Source of the DNA: Blastocystis sp. Blastoise
Taxonomy: Eukaryota > Protista > Bigyra: Opalinata
DNA: 64,000 nt
Direction: 5' to 3'
Assembly: GCA_039096225.1 (NCBI GenBank)
Contig: JBBPEB010000013.1
Location: 806,001-870,000 of the forward strand
How positions within the stretch are numbered: the stretch's first letter is position 1; every line of letters starts with the position of its first letter. The notes under the pieces were generated by a model. It ran no database searches. It saw only the letters and a program-made list of their open reading frames with translations, and had not been told where the DNA came from. Below, piece after piece: positions 21,750 through 64,000 of the stretch. Both the position numbers and the translations under genes were made by a program.

Positions 21750-24301
21750 TTAATCTGTTTTATAGGTACCTTGTAAATCAAGCATACACTTTTCAGAATC
21801 GCAGAATGAGATTTCAGAAGGATACATATTAAGTTCTGTACCATTATTTTTATGTTCTTCAATACCAGATCCGAAAGATTTTTTACTATTAGAAGATTTT
21901 AATTTATTAGAACGTATTTGGAATGGATTTAATTTCTTTTCATTATTATTAAGAACTGATTCTACAGCTATAGACATAGCTTTAGGAGAAGAAGGAGTAG
22001 TAAGAGTTTCTTCTTCTTCAGTCCAAGAAATAGGTAAAAGATTTTTACTCATTTCAATATATTGTTCTTCTGTAATTTCTTGATAAGGAATTTGTGGATA
22101 ACAAGATAAATCACATTTAGGTAAACACGAAATACCTTTTAATTGATATTGGAAATAATCTAAACATTTTTCAACCATATTTGATTCTGTTTTAGGATCA
22201 AATGTGACAGTACAACTAACTTGATTATCAGCCCAATATTTCTGTAAGAAAGCAGCTAAAGAGAATTGTTCAAAAATCGATACTTCATCAATAACACGAA
22301 CATTTTTACCCGCACAAACAGGGAATTCTACAACAACTAATTGATTTTCTTGTCCAACAGCAGGTTCTATATGATATCCGGCATGTTCTAAAGCAGGTAA
22401 CATATCACTATCTTTAGGGAAACGTACACGACGTATATAAAAACGACCTAATGGATAATGCATACCAGGAGTAGCACCAGCTAATAAAGATACAGTACCT
22501 GAAGGTTTAATAGAAGTAGTTTTAATAGATCGAGGTACACATAACCATTCACTATATACATCATCCCAATGTTGAACTGTATTATATCCTTCATCCATCC
22601 ATTCACGTAAATCTTCTAAACTATGTTCAGATAAGAATTGAGCTACACCAGAAACAGAACAACCTATTCTACGATTTCTTAACATAACTCTATTAGTTTC
22701 AGGCCAATGAGTCATTCCTAAAGTAACTGTCTTTGCATATAAATAAGCAAATTTCAAAGTACGTTTATATTCTTGTAAAGAATTATGTCTAGCAGGAAAT
22801 GTTTCGACTAAACAACATAATTCATAAGATTCTAAAGATTGTTCTAAACATGGATTTCCACCTTTAACTCTATATATATATATATATGTTAGAAACATGT
22901 AGTATTATATTTTATAAAGATAAAAAATATAATATTGTGAACATTCTAATAATATAGCATTACTCAAGCTCTAATACAACTTATAATGAAGTAGATAGGG
23001 TAGTTATGTAATGCATTAGTAAATATTATTTATAATCATAGCATATTAATATATATATATATATGTATTATATATATATACCTTTTATCTTTATAATCTT
23101 TAGGATCAGCCATTCTACCATAAGCTCTCATATTCTCTAACCAACATAAACCAGGTTCACCATTTATACATATACGACTAGCTATTTGATGATAATTCAT
23201 ACCTAAACGAGCAAAAATACTATTATTAGAAGTCCAGCCATAGGAAGAACGATGAGGATTTATCTCATAATTCTATATATATGTTATTATAGTATATATT
23301 TTTAATTTAATTGTTATTAAAAAAAAAAGAGAGAGAGAAAAAAAAACACTTTATATAACTACCTTTAAATCTAAGAAAGCATCATCATTTTCTTCTCCAA
23401 AAGCGATTTCAGCACAACGAATATTACCAACCCCAATAACACATTTACCAATATAATTAAATAAATCAACAATTAAAGTAGAAGATAACTTTTTACCAAT
23501 CTATATAAATTGAATACATAAATAATACATATACTTAATAGAATAATAAATAAATATATATACATCTTGTGTTAATAATTTTACTATTTGTTCATGAAGA
23601 TCAATAAGTGGTTTTGGACCTGAAGATTTACCGCCATATGTCTTTAAATCTTCACCAGCAGTACGAATATGTGAATAATCAAAAGTAATTCCAGGAAGAC
23701 GTTGTCCATTTTCACCAAAATAAGATAAAATCAGATCACCAACTGATTTAACCCATCCTTCACGGCTATCTTCAATTTCATATACAACACGTTCTAAAGA
23801 AGGATCAGGACCAACAATAGTTACTTTATTTGCTCCTTTAGTATCAAAACCAACACCTACACCCAGCATAGTAGCATCCATTAAGAACTCAAATGGCTTT
23901 GATAAATCAACATCAATATTCTCTGTAGACACAAAAGCACAATTATTTAAAGCAGCAGCTAAATTCTTTTGATGAATAATAGGTGTTCCCATACAATATA
24001 AACCACGACCAGGAGGAAGAAACTTCATATTAAAGATCATATCGTACATTTCTTCAGCACTTCGTTCACCTTGTTCATCATTCCAACCTAAATGATATTG
24101 CTCAATGTGATTTTTCTGAATAGAATAGGTGCCTTCAACAACACGACGAACAGTTTCAAACCAATCTTCTTTGTGTCCATTGATGGTTCTAGAATAAGTT
24201 CTTCTATAAATAGTTTCACCTAATCCATTAAATCCGAAAGGAGCTTTCTTATGTCTATATTGCTCAACAAAATCATCATTCAAACTAAACGAATATTCCA
24301 T
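21750..24301 (-). CDS. nrdJ: Class II (adenosylcobalamin-dependent) monomeric ribonucleoside-triphosphate reductase, 4 exons
   Basis: PPGRGL, ALNNCAF, GVGVGFD, TSNNS, GEPG, NPCLEQSLESYELCCLVE, IKPSGTVSLLAG, WADNQVSCT and C-terminal redox pair FCDSEKC; three GT-AG introns. Confidence 0.93.
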
Positions 24302-46093: not shown

Positions 46094-56417
<10,324 letters not shown>

Positions 56418-57853
56418 GATAGATTATTAATATATATGTTTTTCTTTGACAGAAGATATTATTTATAAGATAATAGTTCTTATATTCTTGTTAATAATAA
56501 ATAATAGAGTGAAAAAATCTTTTTCCCCATGTTTTTGTTTTAGTAGATGACCTTCAAAAAACAAACTTTCAGCTGGAAGATCAATTTTTAAAATGTCTTT
56601 TCTTAAATAATTATTTAAAAAGAATATATCTATCTTATAAATCTAACACTGGTTTGATTCATGAAGTCAACAGAAGCAAATATAAAGGCATAGTAGTAGA
56701 AATTATGAACAAAATCCGCCAATTTGTTTGTATCATATCAAATAACTTTATAGCTTCAAATGGAAGCATGTAGTGTGTGTAAATCATGATTGTGATGAAG
56801 TCTAAATTTAGTTATAATTACTAAAACCGTATTTAGTCAGATTTTGAAAAGTATTGCTTTTTTAAAGTATACATATTTAGAATAGCATTATATTTACTCT
56901 TATTTTCTATTTGAATCGCTTTATCTATAGTAGATAAATAAAAACACGTAAATGAGTAAAGAATTGTCAGTATCATAAAATAAAAAGGACTTCCTACGTC
57001 ATAGTAATCGTTTACAGCCATTGTAGTTTACTAAACTGAACAAACATGATGTTGACACATGTTATAGAATGCATTCTTATTTTTAAGACTGACTCAAACA
57101 TGGTCATTGATATTAAATATGCTATAAAGTACTGCTGGTAATAGTTTGTTATTCACTTATGATTCCCATATATGGAATCACTTTTAATAAATAATAAATT
57201 GTAAAAATATATATATATTTGGGGTATCTATAATATTAGATAAGCAAAACAATTTATGTAATAAACGCTATAACTACAGCCTAGTAGTTTTAATCTTTAT
57301 TAATCAAAAGTATACACATTTTGACACATTGGTAAAAATACAACCACGTTTATTTCCAATAATATTTTGACTAATAACAGTATTAAACACTCTAATAATT
57401 AATTTTACAAACAGTGAATTGAATCTCTTGTTTTAAGGCACGTAAACACACAATTCAAAACTGTTTTAACCTTAAAATTTGATATTTAGACGTAATATTT
57501 ACACATTAGACTATATGTATCCGTCAAGACATATTTGACTACTTTTTAACAACTTTAGAGTCAACATGTCCAGTTTGTCATTCACTCCTCAACTCCACTT
57601 TTGACTATTTTTTTAAGAAATGCAATACATATAAGGTCTATTTTTCAAAAATGTAAAAATTAATTGTCAAATATGAATTTGATTTGTCAACTTTCGGAAA
57701 ATTTTTAGAAAAATGATTTTTCAATTTTCAGTTTTTTAACATGTTATACTATTGACTCTATTGAACTCATTTTTTTATTAATTTCAAATATTAAAAATAA
57801 TATAATTAATATATTTTATTCTCTATATATATTTGCTAAAATTATATTAAATA

Positions 57854-58820
57854 ATTAAATATTGACTGAGAAATTAATGTTATAAAGTATACCCTTTTTC
57901 CAAAAATTAATTTTTTTATGTTTTGCATATATAATTTTTTTTCTCAAAAGTTATTTTATATTTTGATAATATTTTTATAAATATATAAACTATATGTTAT
58001 CTAGTTTATAGATAAGTTTTATTTATTTATTAAAAATTGATATTGATGGAGAAATTGTCAAAATAAACTATAGTATCCAAAATGCTTCCTTCTTTTTAAA
58101 CGACTTATTTCACTAATTAAAGACAATTAAAAACTTATTTATTTATTTAAAGCATATTTATGACATTTGCAACTCATAATGACTCATAACTAACTTTTTA
58201 GAACAAACATTGTCTGTATCAGTTCAACATGTTGTCTTAAAATTTTCAAATAAGTGATATATAGTATCCATGAGTGGTTCTAAACACATATTAAAACGTT
58301 TTAAGAGTTTATTGAGTTAACATTGTCTGGTGATCTGTTGTTAAAGTCTTTTAAAAACAAAATAAAATTATAAAATATGTTTATTTTGGTATGTTGTTAT
58401 TAAATATAAAGTCAAATGTCAAATAAAATTGTTAATGATGAAAAAATTAACAAAAAACAAATAAAGAATTTTTAAGAAAAATTTCGAACGTCATTTTTTA
58501 TTGAGTTCAACTATTGTCTCCTGTGACTTCATTTTTTATATTTTTAAAAAAATGACAAAAACGCATCATGTTTTGGTTGTCTTATATCTAAATATGTTTT
58601 AACTTTATTATTTTATTAAATATTGACTGAGAAATTACAATCACAAAATATACCCTTTTTAGAAAATTTTCATTTTTATGTTTTTAATATAAACTTAGAT
58701 ATTTTAGTCAATATTGAATATTAAATAAAAATATTAAAAATGCATCATTTTTATGTTATCTAGTTTCTAAATATGTTTTTACTTTTTGTATATGTTGAAT
58801 ATTGAAAGAGATCTGGTGGT
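57854..58820. repeat. Degenerate ~200-bp direct repeats in the Helitron 5' non-coding region
   Basis: ATTAAATATTGACTGAGAAATTA at 57854 and 58615; TATACCCTTTTT in both copies; TATGTTATCTAGTTT at ~57993 and ~58752 (offset ~760 bp). Confidence 0.75.
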
Positions 58821-60486
58821 CACAAAATTGGGTGTCAAACACAAAAATTTTTATAAACAAATTTTTCTCTTTTAAAAGATATTATAAAAATATAAAACAT
58901 ATTTATGACGGATACGGAGTTAGATAAATACAAAACAGTTCAATTAAGTTTATTTAAAAGGAATGTGTTGGATATCAGTTTGTCTTTTGTCGTTATTTAA
59001 AGGAATTATTGTTGTTTCAGAGTAGTTAAAGTCATTATCATGACAAATGAAACCAATTTAGAGTTTATAGTTAGTGATGTGTGTATTGATATGTTGTCAA
59101 GTTCTAAATATAAACAAATCTACCCGTCAAAACTATTTATAAGACCAACCCGTCAATAAAAGTCAATTTTATAAAAATAAATATAGAGTATGTTAATAGA
59201 TATAGGAAAAATAAGAAAACAATAAAAAATGAAAATGGAAAAATAAGTGTTTTTCTAAAAATGAAAAATATTGGATAAAATAAAAATAATCCAATAATCT
59301 TGGTTAAAATTTTGTGCGAAAATGGTTTTTTGCGAATTTTAGCCAGAAATTTAGAGTTTTCGAAAAATTTCTTTAACAGTCATTTTTAGAATTGTGTTCC
59401 GGATGTTTTGATGTTATTTTTATTTTATAAAAGTTAATAACAAAGTCAATAATACGAAAAATGTGTGAGACACCGTACTTTTGGGCTGCTAAATTAAGGA
59501 TATTAATTCTACTGATTTCAGTAAATCATCACAAATTTCATTGTTTTTATTCGTTAATTATTAGCTTCAATATATTTATATATACAAATATTTTTAGTCT
59601 TATTCATATCAACTTGAGTTCAGTGACTTTCGATACAAAAATGCTTTGTTTCCTATTGATATATAGAAATTTATTTTTCACTAGATCTTATTAACGTATA
59701 TAAATAAAGCTCACTTAAAGATTTATGCATTTAAATCACAAAAAAAAAGATATATAACTGAAAAAAAGAAAATTATGCAGCCTAAACAGTAGTTGATTGC
59801 TCTAGCAAGTGTGGTTGTATAGATTGCATCTGATATTATAAATATTATACTTGTTGAATATAGAAAAATATAATGAGAGTTAAAATCAATTATTATGTTC
59901 CTGTTATAATATATTATTCGTATATATTACCGCTAGACATTACAATTTATTTATAGCACTTTTATATTCATTATGATACGTTAATTAGATTAATATACAA
60001 CATTTTGAAAAGAATCAGGTCTTTTCTAACCTTTCTAAGTGTTATAAATATATATAAATATGAAATAAAGTTTTTCATGTCATTAGCAATATATATCAAT
60101 TAATACTTATGGTTTTTATCACAAATAGAGTAATCAAGTCACAAATTGTTTAACTAAAAACAGTATAATATTTGAGATATGGCATTTTTTAAATTATATA
60201 GTACCAATAAAAGCTTGTGACAGTCAGTTATACTATTTCTACATTAATTATAAAACAGTTTAAAAAAAGAGTTTTAAAAATGCTATATTTTTTATCAAAT
60301 AAATTCATACTGTATATGCAGACCAGAATAATAATGTGAAATTTAAATAATGATAAAATACAGCAACAAAATATCAACTTTGATCATTTATAATATAATT
60401 TAATCCACCATATAAATTCTATAACTCTTCGAGTTCATTTTATAAACAGTGTATTTAGTTTTATATTCATTAATTAAGAAAAATAA

Positions 60487-60669
60487 ATAGAAAATAATGT
60501 ATTTTTAAATACTATGAAAGAAACGAGTTGTTTTCCCTGATGAGCCGATATATACCGAGCTTGCTCGGTATATTCGGCATTTTTACACGAGTCGAAGGAC
60601 GAGTGTAAAAATAATCAGGGAAAATAACGAGTTTCATTCATAGTATTTCAAAATAATCATTTTTCTGTT
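60487..60669. repeat. T/Y-shaped branched palindrome
   Basis: ~55-bp imperfect stem (60487-60541 with 60614-60669) enclosing hairpin arms 60544-60578 and 60580-60611. Confidence 0.9.
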
Positions 60670-60962
60670 ACTATGAAAGAAAAAAATCAAAAAAACCGCG
60701 ATTATATTTAATTTTTTGTATATAACATTATTTTGCTTCAATACATGATCATATATATACTATTGACCTAATCAAAAACTAGTTTGGTAATTTAGACACA
60801 CAATTAAAAACATGATAATAAATAATAGCCAATTACATTTTCATAATTAAATTTATTTGTTCAATAAACACAGAATCATCATATAATTATATATGATTTT
60901 AAATTTTATGAAAAAGTTATATATAAAAAACATAAATAGGTAAATTTTATTATAATAATCAA

Positions 60963-61088
60963 TATTAATTCTTCCGTTCTTCGAACTGCAGAAGGGGGTA
61001 TGCAAACCCCGCATAGAGTCTGCGCGACGCGCGCAGCCATAAGCGGGGAAGACATCCCCCCTTTTTGTTCTCGACGGAAGAATTAATA
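60963..61088. repeat. GC-rich 126-nt imperfect rod hairpin
   Basis: TATTAATTCTTCCGT/ACGGAAGAATTAATA (15 bp perfect), G-run/C-run, CCCCGC/GCGGGG, CTGCGCG-acg-CGCGCAG. Confidence 0.9.
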
Positions 61089-61687: not shown

Positions 61688-61735
61688 TTCGAGAACATTC
61701 TAGAACATTCTCGAAACTTCTAGAACATTCGAGAA
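61688..61735 (+). promoter_or_regulatory. Heat-shock element array (10 contiguous alternating nTTCn/nGAAn units) upstream of the recombinase
   Basis: TTCgaGAAcaTTCtaGAAcaTTCtcGAAacTTCtaGAAcaTTCgaGAA, ending 88 nt before ATG 61824. Confidence 0.8.
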
Positions 61736-61823: not shown

Positions 61824-62759
61824 ATGAAAAATACAAATTATGACAAGTATCTTTTGGTTATACAGAATTCAAATTATTCTGATATTTGGAAAAAACGTTT
61901 AACCAATTATTTCAATTTATATATTTTCCCATTACCATTTAAAAAGTTCTCAGAATTCTTAAAGAATCCTTATTCATTCATGGATTATATGGTAAATGAA
62001 CGTAAAATCAAAATTAGTCCAATGAAATCGTTATGTGAATTGATTTTATTTATTATACGTAATGTTTCTTCATTAAATAAAGAAGGTATTTTAAATAAAT
62101 GGTGTGAATTTTATGTGATTATCAATTCAATGTATGAAAAATATCTGGATAATAAGAAACGTACTTTAATTCAAGATCTTATTAAAGATGGTATTACGAC
62201 TCCATATTTACATGAATATCACGATAAATTAGAAAATTATAATCCATTACGATTAATATTAGATTTTTACTCCTATCTTCCTCCTGCTCGTGCTGATTAT
62301 GCTCAATTATTCATTCTATCACCAGAAGATACTATTGATCCAACTATTCATAAGAATTATATTGTTTATGATAAAGAGAAACACACTGGTTCTATTCTAT
62401 TAAATGATTATAAAACTGCTGGTAAATACTCTACAATTCAATTAGATGCACCAAAAGAATTGATTGAAGATCTAGAATTACTCTTAAAAAGAAATCCAAA
62501 TCGTAAATTTATATTTGAATCTTCTGTAAGAACTGGATTTACTACTAAAGCATTTGATTGGTTTGTGAATAAGCATTTAAAACAAATCCATCCAAAATTA
62601 ACCATTAATGCATTAAGAAAATTATATGCTACAACTACAACCAATACATTCCAAGATATAGAAAATTCTGCTTCTGCTTTATGTCATAATGATTATACAC
62701 ATATTAATTCTTATGTATCTTTAGAAAATAATAATTTATTTAAAAAATTAATTGAATAA
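61824..62759 (+). CDS. Tyrosine recombinase/integrase, Polinton-like-virus type (311 aa from first ATG)
   Basis: Catalytic set in order: R (LPPARADY), K (LNDYKTAGKY), NxxR in place of HxxR (TINALRKLYAT), H (ALCHN), Y (THINSYV). Intronless. Confidence 0.85.
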   Translation: MKNTNYDKYLLVIQNSNYSDIWKKRLTNYFNLYIFPLPFKKFSEFLKNPYSFMDYMVNERKIKISPMKSLCELILFIIRNVSSLNKEGILNKWCEFYVIINSMYEKYLDNKKRTLIQDLIKDGITTPYLHEYHDKLENYNPLRLILDFYSYLPPARADYAQLFILSPEDTIDPTIHKNYIVYDKEKHTGSILLNDYKTAGKYSTIQLDAPKELIEDLELLLKRNPNRKFIFESSVRTGFTTKAFDWFVNKHLKQIHPKLTINALRKLYATTTTNTFQDIENSASALCHNDYTHINSYVSLENNNLFKKLIE

Positions 62760-62832: not shown

Positions 62833-63207
62833 TTAATTAAAAGGTAAGAAAGATAGATTATTATTATTATTTTGATATTGATTTTGTTGTTGATTACTTT
62901 TCATAGTTGGCATAAACATATTATTGGGTTGAATAAGATTCTTATCATCTTGATATTGATTCTCATTCTTCATATATTGTTTATCCAATAGCATTTCAAG
63001 ACGTTGATGAATCACAGGATCATCTATATAAAGTAGCATATTTCTACAATAACTCAATTGCAAATCACTAAGATTTTTGTTGTTATTGTTATTTAAAAAT
63101 TGTTCTAATAGATTTGCTATTTCATTCTTTTTGGACTTAATTCCTTCTTCTTTTAGATTCTTCATCACACGACAAAAATAAGAATAACTAAGATATTTCT
63201 TGTTCAT
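62833..63207 (-). CDS. Hypothetical viral protein, 124 aa
   Basis: Intronless ORF with helical N-terminus and N/Q-rich tail, convergent with the recombinase and preceded by a conserved promoter module. Confidence 0.6.
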   Translation of the reverse strand: MNKKYLSYSYFCRVMKNLKEEGIKSKKNEIANLLEQFLNNNNNKNLSDLQLSYCRNMLLYIDDPVIHQRLEMLLDKQYMKNENQYQDDKNLIQPNNMFMPTMKSNQQQNQYQNNNNNLSFLPFN

Positions 63208-63227: not shown

Positions 63228-63325
63228 TAAACAAAACAAATTAATTATATAAAACACTAATATAATAAATTAAAGATTCTACAAATAGAGCCAGTTCAAA
63301 ATGAATGTTCTAGAATGTTCTAGAA
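63228..63325 (-). promoter_or_regulatory. Intergenic module copy A: 5-unit HSE (63303-63325) plus 54-bp repeat (63228-63281)
   Basis: GAAtgTTCtaGAAtgTTCtaGAA; the 54-bp block is 52/54 identical to 63481-63534. Confidence 0.7.
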
Positions 63326-63480: not shown

Positions 63481-63547
63481 TAAACAAAACAAATTAATTA
63501 TATAAAATATTAATATAATAAATTAAAGATTCTAGAATATTCTAGAA
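63481..63547 (-). promoter_or_regulatory. Intergenic module copy B: 4-unit HSE (63530-63547) plus 54-bp repeat (63481-63534)
   Basis: TTCtaGAAtaTTCtaGAA abutting the repeat block. Confidence 0.7.
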
Positions 63548-63551
63548 TGTT

Positions 63552-64000
63552 TTAACAAGGCATAAGATTTCCATTAGAAAGTAAATAAAGTAAAGAATAA
63601 TAAAAGCAACCATTTGCATTACTTGTAGTTTTTTGGTGTTGAATAGGATTATATTGAATATTATGATTTTGAATAAATGATTTTGAAAAAGTAGGTTCAT
63701 TTCCTAATGATGAATAGTGTTCTATGTTTTTATTACCATTATAAATAACAGCTTCAAAATGACCATTATAAGGATCACTAGGACTTTCATGAAAGATCAT
63801 ATTAAATTTAGTTTGATCTTGATCTATATTTTGTTCAAAATCATCATAACTATTATAATAATTATAAGATTGAGAATTCGTTTTATTTAATTGTTTCATA
63901 ACATTTTCAGCACGATCACAAGCAACAGAAGAGGTAGGTTTATTTAAATAAGCATAATTATATAATTGAGATATTAAAGAATTGGGTATATTACAATATT
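63552..64000 (-). CDS. Adenain/Ulp1-like cysteine protease (Polinton PRO-type), 5'-truncated by window edge
   Basis: NGHFEAV...IEHYSSLG...QYNPIQHQ...ANGCFYYSLLYL resembles the GHW-x-A...E-x-FDSxG...Q...CGxY pattern. The frame stays open from 63899 to the window end. Confidence 0.6.
   Translation of the reverse strand, partial: YCNIPNSLISQLYNYAYLNKPTSSVACDRAENVMKQLNKTNSQSYNYYNSYDDFEQNIDQDQTKFNMIFHESPSDPYNGHFEAVIYNGNKNIEHYSSLGNEPTFSKSFIQNHNIQYNPIQHQKTTSNANGCFYYSLLYLLSNGNLMPC

What the first reader, a model, noticed from the sequence alone, without database searches (positions are those of the whole stretch)
60487..60682. T-shaped hairpin with DNA-stabilising motifs and a triplicated 14-bp site near the element edge
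Seen: a long stem closing two arms (GCCGA.ATATACCGAGC-TT-GCTCGGTATAT.TCGGC and TTTTTACAC-GA-GTC-GAAG-GAC-GA-GTGTAAAAA). Both 2x2 internal mismatches are CGAG opposite CGAG. TACTATGAAAGAAA occurs direct at 60510 and 60669 and inverted with one mismatch at 60632-60645. Established: tandem sheared G.A pairs in Py-GA-Pu context and C-TT-G mini-loops are stable in DNA; T-shaped ends prime parvovirus replication; IntI and XerCD recombine folded ssDNA sites (attC, CTX attP). Inference: a functional single-strand structure serving as replication origin, terminus or folded recombination site for the adjacent recombinase.
Basis: partly seen in the sequence, partly recalled or inferred. Interest (0 to 1): 0.7.

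Follow-up and report, generated by a model that had tools for sequence, protein, structure and literature searches.

The report
Folded attachment site of protist virus
A 184-base T-shaped DNA hairpin lies beside the recombinase gene of what is likely a multi-copy integrated virus in a gut protist, and its repeats are laid out like the folded insertion site of the cholera phage CTX, so it is likely the site by which this virus inserts itself into chromosomes, an untested route that our literature searches did not find described for a virus of eukaryotes.

Summary
The hairpin is real (DNA fold -55 kcal/mol, z -13; strongest of 1,276 windows). Both 2x2 loops are GA/GA; both tips match known stable DNA tetraloop motifs, though these also suit RNA. 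It lies 1.15 kb upstream of a tyrosine recombinase with its catalytic R, K, R, H and Y in place (Cre/Xer fold), followed by an adenovirus-type protease gene: a Polinton-like virus whose recombinase occurs in 10 near-identical variants at 19 contig places, named from Blastocystis sp. Blastoise. New here: the three 14-mers are not a simple triplication. Each is part of a 22-base unit (TTTT, 4 variable bases, 14-mer) beside a 7-base spacer: one whole two-sided site (60632-60682) and one site with only its right half (60486-60523). Folding sets the two spacers face to face, mostly unpaired, under a forked tip, as in CTXphi attP(+). Best reading (0.45): a folded recombination site left at the virus's insertion edge. 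Rivals: hairpin telomere or origin (0.2), ordinary duplex site (0.12), RNA (0.1), independent foldback (0.13). The element's edge, its far end and conservation among copies could not be seen: no genome was held and no DNA of close relatives was found.

The parts
60486..60669 (+). T-shaped fold: 56-bp ungapped stem (60486-60541 with 60669-60614) closing a three-way junction
60544..60578 (+). Arm 1, tip gCTTGc (d(gCNNGc) motif)
60579..60612 (+). Arm 2, tip cGAAGg (d(cGNABg) motif), tandem GA/GA at 60589-60590 with 60601-60602
60525..60630 (+). Tandem GA/GA mismatch of the main stem (60525-60526 opposite 60629-60630)
60486..60494 (-). Partial half-site D: 8 of 9 bases match half-site C, then no 14-mer; candidate host side of the junction
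   Evidence: role inferred
60495..60501 (+). 7-base spacer of site 1; predicted crossover region
   Evidence: role inferred
60502..60523 (+). Half-site A: TTTT, 4 bases, 14-mer (copy 1)
60632..60653 (-). Half-site B: TTTT, 4 bases, 14-mer (copy 2, one mismatch)
60654..60660 (+). 7-base spacer of site 2; faces spacer 1 in the fold (5 of 7 unpaired in register)
60661..60682 (+). Half-site C: TTTT, 4 bases, 14-mer (copy 3); with B forms a whole two-sided site centred on 60657
60963..61088 (.). Second long imperfect hairpin, GC-rich, role unknown
   Evidence: (z -6.3)
61688..61735 (.). Ten alternating nGAAn/nTTCn units (heat-shock-element pattern) upstream of the recombinase
   Evidence: the label is recalled
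61824..62759 (+). 311-aa tyrosine recombinase (R156, K197, R265, H288, Y297; N262 at the usual His)
62833..63207 (-). 124-aa ORF without detected relatives, with a 5-unit nGAAn array at 63303-63325 upstream
63552..64000 (-). Adenovirus-type cysteine protease gene, cut by the window end

Best explanation
The hairpin is likely the attachment site of a Polinton-like virus, and it would work as folded single-stranded DNA cut by the virus's own tyrosine recombinase. Shown: the fold, three 22-base units in identical register around two 7-base spacers, the facing of the two spacers in the fold, and the recombinase with intact catalytic residues 1.15 kb away. Inferred: in the free virus (a displaced single strand or an extruded cruciform) two inverted two-sided sites, D-spacer-A and B-spacer-C, zip into one duplex site with a mismatched centre and a forked tip; recombinase subunits bind the paired halves and exchange one strand with an A/T-rich chromosomal target that resembles the inner part of the half-site; host replication resolves the junction. 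The integrated copy then keeps A, the tip and the whole B-C site at this edge, with host DNA in place of D, which is what the window shows; the fourth 14-mer is predicted at the far end of the virus. The GA/GA pairs and stable tips would speed and hold the fold.
For: Register: A, B and C all read TTTT-N4-14-mer outward from a 7-base spacer; this pattern occurs only 3 times in the window; D matches C for 8 of 9 bases and then stops. Differences between A and C are all 4 in the N4 block (chance about 0.003 under even decay, post hoc). CTXphi attP(+) is two inverted pairs of recombinase sites 90 nt apart that fold into a ~150 bp stem with a double-hairpin tip and unpaired overlap bases (PMC5357621 and PMC3442271, passages). 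The recombinase model (pLDDT 96.6) matches Cre, Xer, IntI and Tn1549 Int over its whole length (Z 11.7-12.7, rmsd 4.2-4.9 for those rows; XerA rmsd 13.4; Cre E 6e-4); R, K, R are invariant in 139 of 139 relatives. Ten variants differing by 1-5 residues at 19 contig places mean recent integration at many targets. Both 2x2 loops GA/GA (chance 3e-5 to 1e-4) and both tips in the four stable DNA motifs (1e-4 to 3e-3) (post hoc; motif list seen as a title in reference lists).
Against: No second copy, empty site or far end could be read, so the edge and conservation are unshown. A 22-base half-site is longer than the 10-11 bp arms of Xer-type sites. Strand conflict: the 2 paired spacer bases lie on the inner side, so a CTX-type cut that gives this junction would use the bottom-strand fold, whereas the stabilising motifs are on the top strand (inference). 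D matches C also in the variable block (5 bases, up to 1 mismatch: 89 of 2,692 TTTT starts, 3%), which fits D being viral and paired rather than host. The energy model prefers two 2-base bulges to a 5-base bubble at the spacer. The site-2 symmetry follows automatically from one direct plus one inverted repeat and could arise by template switching. These viruses are double-stranded; no single-stranded stage is shown. None of 30 loci with distant recombinase relatives had such a T fold, though most are giant-virus or partial contigs. AI notes propose a CTX-like reading often, a warning on the prior.
Confidence: 0.45

Rival explanations
1. Hairpin terminus or origin of a linear virus genome: the T fold caps the end and primes or is resolved during replication, parvovirus-style; the recombinase may resolve head-to-head dimers at the cruciform whose branch point sits in the spacers.
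For: T shape with two arms at a three-way junction. Terminal palindromes in endogenous virophages and PLVs of Halocafeteria are proposed to prime replication (10.64898/2026.07.28.741278, section 7); PLV inverted repeats are proposed to be both recombinase substrate and origin (PMC11296320, passages). One of 30 related loci (L131, A32 ATPase plus related recombinase) ends in a 788-bp perfect fold-back, which may also be an amplification artefact.
Against: The stabilised strand would be the element's 5' end, not a 3' primer, unless flip and flop forms exist. No Rep/HUH gene in the 3.3 kb seen. Protelomerases match the recombinase less well (Z 6.0-7.0 against 11.7-12.7) and their sites are plain palindromes (recalled). 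Priming alone does not need a third 14-mer in recombination-site register.
Confidence: 0.2
2. Ordinary double-stranded attachment site with tolerance of mismatched spacers (Tn916/Tn1549 or CTnDOT style); the fold is a separate signal or a by-product of duplicating the site.
For: A 7-base spacer between AAAA and TTTT and many dispersed A/T-rich targets fit such enzymes (recalled); Tn1549 Int is among the tied best fold matches (Z 11.7); recombinase-type PLVs mostly lack target-site duplications and are thought to circularise (PMC12220804, passages).
Against: Does not explain why the two sites are joined by 40 further stem pairs and a forked tip with stable loops.
Confidence: 0.12
3. A structured non-coding RNA or a transcription-end signal of the virus (VA-RNA-like or virophage hairpin rule).
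For: RNA fold -88.7 kcal/mol, z -14.0, and 11 kcal/mol better on the top strand than the bottom; tips and tandem GA are RNA-compatible; virophage loci L149 and L150 carry repeated intergenic hairpins.
Against: Only 1 G-T among 75 pairs; runs of 4-5 T inside the fold on both strands would stop Pol III (sequence; rule recalled); no gene ends next to it; no Rfam match; does not explain copy 3.
Confidence: 0.1
4. An independent foldback element (MITE) or a neutral template-switch product that happens to lie beside the virus.
For: 184 bases with long inverted arms; 3 kb of unexplained repetitive non-coding DNA lies to its left; genome-wide dispersal untested.
Against: No flanking direct repeat at the stem ends (sequence); a 33-base direct repeat ties the stem to DNA outside it on the virus side; single copy in 64 kb; loop and mismatch motifs look selected.
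Confidence: 0.13

Closest known systems
CTXphi attP(+) of Vibrio cholerae (folded single-stranded site used by XerC/XerD)
   Same: Two inverted two-sided sites about 100-150 bases apart fold into one stem with a forked double-hairpin tip and unpaired spacer bases.
   Different: Eukaryotic host, double-stranded capsid-type virus, own single recombinase, many dispersed targets instead of dif, 7-base spacer and 22-base conserved halves; activity untested.
Tyrosine-recombinase Polinton-like viruses and virophages (OLV11-like Yrec; e.g. Gezel-14T/PgVV, entomopoxvirus-associated PLVs)
   Same: Same recombinase family, adenain-type protease, non-coding repeat region next to the recombinase, many endogenous copies.
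   Different: No folded or T-shaped attachment site was found described for them in the searches and passages read; capsid genes lie outside the window.
Terminal palindromes of Halocafeteria seosinensis endogenous virophages and PLVs
   Same: Palindrome at or near the end of an integrated virus of a stramenopile.
   Different: Those are short (52 nt in subtype 5), next to target-site duplications and tied to RVE integrases; this is 184 nt, forked, with recombinase-site register.
Parvovirus T- and Y-shaped terminal hairpins (AAV ITR, MVM left end)
   Same: Shape, size, mismatched GA bubble in the stem (MVM, recalled).
   Different: No Rep/NS1 gene seen; neighbour is a tyrosine recombinase, which leaves a 5'-OH and cannot prime synthesis (established chemistry).
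Integron attC / IntI
   Same: Folded single-strand substrate with unpaired centre; IntI is among the tied fold matches (Z 11.9).
   Different: No cassette array; K-to-R spacing of 68 residues leaves no room for the IntI-specific insertion (about 110 in IntI, recalled).

Membership tests
CTXphi-type folded attP(+) | Two inverted two-sided recombinase sites that fold into one stem | tested here: met
   Site 2 whole; site 1 with right half whole and 9 bases of the left half; one ungapped register
CTXphi-type folded attP(+) | Forked double-hairpin tip, fold of about 150 bases | tested here: met
   Two arms, 184 bases (CTX description)
CTXphi-type folded attP(+) | [quoted passage not shown] | tested here: inconclusive
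   5 of 7 unpaired in register, but spacer 1 may be host DNA and the energy model gives two bulges
CTXphi-type folded attP(+) | Carried by a bacterial single-stranded filamentous phage that uses host XerC/XerD at dif | tested here: not met
   Eukaryotic genome; neighbours are a Preplasmiviricota-type recombinase and protease. Works like it, is not a member
CTXphi-type folded attP(+) | Single strand exchange on the folded strand | not testable with these tools
   Needs biochemistry
Polinton-like virus with tyrosine recombinase | Tyrosine recombinase of the PLV/virophage/giant-virus family | tested here: met
   Atlas 0.98 to Preplasmiviricota clusters; BFVD best matches are giant-virus and virophage proteins
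Polinton-like virus with tyrosine recombinase | Adenovirus-type maturation protease | tested here: met
   Atlas 0.96, PF00770 in 13-16% of the top clusters and 62% of a 0.94 cluster; His and Cys motifs conserved; Pfam itself gave no hit
Polinton-like virus with tyrosine recombinase | Major and minor capsid proteins and A32 ATPase | not testable with these tools
   Window ends 3.3 kb into the element; no genome held
Polinton-like virus with tyrosine recombinase | 14-40 kb genome with terminal inverted repeats | tested here: inconclusive
   Relatives of both genes share longest-contig lengths 16,256, 20,785, 23,715 and 23,956, which suggests ~24 kb genomes; their DNA could not be read
Parvovirus-type terminal hairpin | T- or Y-shaped fold | tested here: met
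Parvovirus-type terminal hairpin | At the genome terminus, flip and flop forms, HUH/SF3 Rep gene | not testable with these tools
   No other copies or long reads; no Rep in the 3.3 kb seen
Protelomerase telomere site | Plain palindrome refolded into a short tip | tested here: not met
   Forked 69-base tip and several mismatches; feature recalled
Protelomerase telomere site | Enzyme of the TelA/TelK/ResT type | tested here: inconclusive
   Z 6.0-7.0 against 11.7-12.7 for Cre/Xer/IntI
Integron attC/IntI | IntI-specific insertion in the catalytic domain | tested here: inconclusive
   K197 to R265 is 68 residues; IntI spacing recalled, no direct alignment obtained
MITE / foldback transposon | Target-site duplication at the ends of the inverted repeat | tested here: not met
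   Flanks of 60486 and 60669 differ
MITE / foldback transposon | Many dispersed copies unlinked to the virus | not testable with these tools
   One copy in 64 kb; no genome held

The most novel reading that the evidence does not exclude
A family of ~24-kb Polinton-like viruses of Blastocystis, with relatives on hundreds of metagenome contigs, integrates through a folded single-stranded attachment site cut by its own tyrosine recombinase: the CTXphi/integron route, re-invented in a eukaryotic double-stranded DNA virus, with relaxed A/T-rich target choice and a recombinase promoter under heat-shock-factor control, so that host stress mobilises it.
Probability: 0.33. Interest if true: 0.85.

Novelty: new variant of a known kind. 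Interest (0 to 1): 0.62.

Why it matters
How tyrosine-recombinase Polinton-like viruses and virophages integrate is open: the papers read infer circular duplex donors or inverted-repeat substrates without a mapped site. This locus gives a concrete 184-base substrate, predicted cut positions (60494/60495, 60501/60502 or 60653/60654) and about 19 young copies in one long-contig assembly, so the question can be settled by aligning copy ends and by one cleavage assay. If true it extends folded-strand recombination from bacteria to eukaryotic viruses and offers a compact single-enzyme integration system.

Tried and rejected
DNA of close relatives not found: viral contigs with the window recombinase, a metagenome relative, two close alignments, GTDB genomes, phage records, metagenome contigs (33: one distant 1.2-kb locus). 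An alignment of 26 distant recombinases had no searchable stretch; two subsets gave 29 further loci. In these 30 loci no T fold appeared among the top folds and the 14 GA/GA loops among 182 were in a tandem repeat (10 in L143) or in short isolated stems (101; that scan finds only 1 of the window's 2 GA/GA loops, so it is not fully sensitive). A 14-base arm-tip pattern gave 120 chance loci without extended stems or related genes; the site-2 pattern gave 0. Sequencing runs: 3 listed, no RNA holder on record; contigs of X1 showed spliced host genes at 55.9-57.2 kb but no listed piece across the hairpin, which is no evidence either way. Rfam 0; tRNA scan none near; bacterial promoter scan at chance level. 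ORF 62833-63207 has no relatives at E<=0.001. First structure prediction was poor (pLDDT 46.5) and was replaced by one with 139 sequences. DNA energy tables carry no special-loop terms and do not rank the tips; the two RNA tables printed identical values, so probably one took effect. Link to the Helitron at 46-52 kb rejected: host genes lie between and no similarity was found. Literature: ten searches; the search for sheared tandem GA in parvovirus hairpins gave 0; two reviews were not held, so Tn916/CTnDOT, MVM and sheared-GA facts are recalled. bioRxiv supplements were closed and no supplements were read; tables there may list Blastocystis viruses.

Full report
Observation. Folded as DNA, 60487-60682 gives -55.1 kcal/mol with z -13.3 and 0 of 200 shuffles as stable; the minus strand gives -53.5. 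The two best of 1,276 sliding 200-base windows are this hairpin; the other three long inverted repeats found in the window lie at 10.9-11.2 and 31.3-31.5 kb, where (AT)n runs are. The loop list shows a three-way junction with arms 60544-60578 and 60579-60612, two 2x2 internal loops, both CGAG/CGAG, and tips gCTTGc and cGAAGg. The 14-mer occurs 3 times against 0.20 expected, but copies 1 and 2 are the two sides of the stem.

Surroundings. The window is A/T-rich eukaryotic DNA with spliced host-type genes up to about 57218 (joints in contigs of run X1) and no frame over 87 codons from there to the hairpin. To the right lie a second hairpin (60963-61088, z -6.3), a 311-aa ORF at 61824-62759, a 124-aa ORF without relatives and a cut ORF at the window end. 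The 311-aa protein scores 0.98 against Preplasmiviricota clusters, has 333 relatives at E<=0.001, and a model from 139 sequences (pLDDT 96.6) matches Cre (E 6e-4), giant-virus and virophage proteins and, tied at Z 11.7-12.7, XerH, XerA, IntI, Cre, Tn1549 Int and type IB topoisomerases; protelomerases score 6.0-7.0. R156, K197 and R265 are invariant in 139 of 139 rows, H288 in 135; Y297 is kept in 25 of 25 close relatives. The cut ORF is an adenovirus-type protease by Atlas features (0.96), with 58-62% identical relatives. The recombinase cluster has 10 members differing by 1-5 residues, 9 named from Blastocystis sp. Blastoise, on 19 contig places in all; two more recombinase families are named from the same strain. 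Metagenome relatives of the recombinase and of the protease share four longest-contig lengths between 16 and 24 kb, from which I infer one virus family of about 24 kb. So the element is a young, multi-copy Polinton-like virus by two genes; capsid genes are outside the window. The paper on those assemblies does not hold the words polinton or recombinase in its main text (PMC10690189, term search and passages); a different, PolB-plus-integrase virus of Blastocystis hominis is described (PMC8502044, passages).

Anatomy. The stem pairs in a single ungapped register from 60486 to 60541. Read outward from two 7-base spacers (60495-60501 and 60654-60660), three units have the same build: TTTT, four variable bases, the 14-mer (A 60502-60523, B 60653-60632, C 60661-60682). 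B and C make a whole two-sided site centred on 60657. A is the right half of a second site 159 bases away; its left half D matches C for 8 of 9 bases and then loses the 14-mer. TTTT-N4-TACTATG occurs only these 3 times in the window. A and C differ only in the four variable bases (chance about 0.003; B and C about 0.013, post hoc). In the fold A pairs with B, D with C, and the spacers face each other with 5 of 7 bases unpaired, or as two 2-base bulges in the energy model. Both tips fall in the four stable DNA tetraloop motifs named in the title of Nakano et al. 2002 (seen in reference lists of PMC3201870 and PMC1802612), and the core of arm 1's tip equals a hairpin used as a stable marker in PMC1802612 (passage). 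Chance for both tips is 1e-4 to 3e-3 and for both GA/GA loops 3e-5 to 1e-4 (post hoc). These motifs exist on the top strand only, except the self-symmetric gCNNGc tip. They do not exclude RNA: the RNA fold has z -14.0.

Mechanism. CTXphi carries two inverted pairs of Xer sites, 90 nt apart, that fold in the single strand into a stem of about 150 bp with a double hairpin and unpaired overlap bases; one strand exchange and host replication integrate it (PMC5357621 and PMC3442271, passages). An element integrated this way by a cut in its first site keeps, at one edge, one half-site, the tip and the whole second site, and carries the fourth half-site at its other edge (inference). That is the pattern here, and it explains why there are three 14-mers and not two or four. 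I therefore read the hairpin as the folded attachment site of the virus's own recombinase (0.45). Against it: no edge, far end or second copy could be read; the half-sites are longer than the 10-11 bp Xer arms; the paired spacer bases point to a cut on the bottom-strand fold while the stabilising motifs are on the top strand; D's match to C includes the variable block (3% by chance), which fits D being viral; the symmetry of site 2 could come from template switching; and a single-stranded stage is not shown for these viruses.

Rivals. A hairpin telomere or origin (0.2) has precedent in terminal palindromes of Halocafeteria virophages and PLVs (10.64898/2026.07.28.741278, section 7 read) and in the proposal that PLV inverted repeats serve both recombinase and primase-helicase (PMC11296320, passages); it can be combined with the best reading if the recombinase resolves dimers at the cruciform. 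A duplex site with mismatch tolerance (0.12) fits the 7-base spacer (recalled) and the lack of target duplications in recombinase-type PLVs (PMC12220804, passages). RNA (0.1) and an independent foldback (0.13) explain neither the third 14-mer nor its register.

Search for the same thing elsewhere. Of 30 loci with distant recombinase relatives, none showed a T fold among its top folds. L131, with an A32 ATPase, has two straight hairpins about 2 kb upstream of its recombinase and a 788-bp perfect fold-back at the contig end; virophage loci L149 and L150 have repeated straight intergenic hairpins. Most of the others are giant-virus or partial contigs, so this is a weak negative. The site-2 pattern has 0 matches in viral contigs.

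Novelty. Searches combining Polinton-like virus, tyrosine recombinase and hairpin (6 papers), T-shaped hairpin with virophage or polinton (0 occurrences of the phrase in the 20 listed of 226) and Blastocystis with these terms and passages of 10.64898/2026.06.19.733378, 10.1101/2022.07.28.501842, 10.1101/2024.03.23.586382 and PMC8547959 gave no folded attachment site in such a virus. The library lacks most subscription papers and no supplements were read. Earlier AI notes propose CTX-like folded sites in bacterial elements and in Ngaro retrotransposons; my reading was noted before I saw them and they are no support. Verdict: real, likely functional, a new variant of a known kind if the attachment-site reading holds; interest 0.62.

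Noticed in passing
window 61688-61735, 63303-63325, 63530-63547: Perfect alternating nGAAn/nTTCn arrays of 10, 5 and 4 units (heat-shock-element pattern, label recalled), the first two just upstream of the recombinase and of the 124-aa ORF; 30 simulated windows gave only 3-unit hits. Suggests stress-induced mobilisation.
   Followed up: partly
window 60963-61088: Second long GC-rich hairpin 300 bases from the T, slightly more stable on the minus strand (-40.7 against -36.7); role unknown.
   Followed up: partly
window 46094-50902 and 1-1666: Helitron Rep/helicase ORF of 1,602 aa with a 99% identical partial inverted copy at the window start.
   Followed up: no
window 21750-24301: Class II (B12-dependent) ribonucleotide reductase domains in a eukaryotic genome.
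   Followed up: no
window 57700-58020 and 58467-58779: Degenerate 310-base duplication (69%) in the unexplained non-coding stretch left of the hairpin.
   Followed up: no
proteins P0027, P0185, P0186, P0028: Two further, more distant recombinase families named from the same Blastocystis strain: several virus families in one genome.
   Followed up: no
proteins P0175, P0214, P0215: Relatives of the recombinase and protease are seen on 89, 256 and 239 metagenome contigs, up to 24 kb long: a widespread virus family for which no description was found.
   Followed up: partly
L131 1-1576 and 2040-2400: PLV-like contig ending in a 788-bp perfect fold-back, with two long hairpins upstream of a related recombinase.
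   Followed up: partly
L149 1204-1310, 5965-6087, 11280-11400; L150 5764-6022: Repeated intergenic hairpins with 20-25 bp stems in two virophage contigs.
   Followed up: no
window 61824-62759: The recombinase clade has Asn, Thr or Ser instead of the usual His of the HxxR motif.
   Followed up: no
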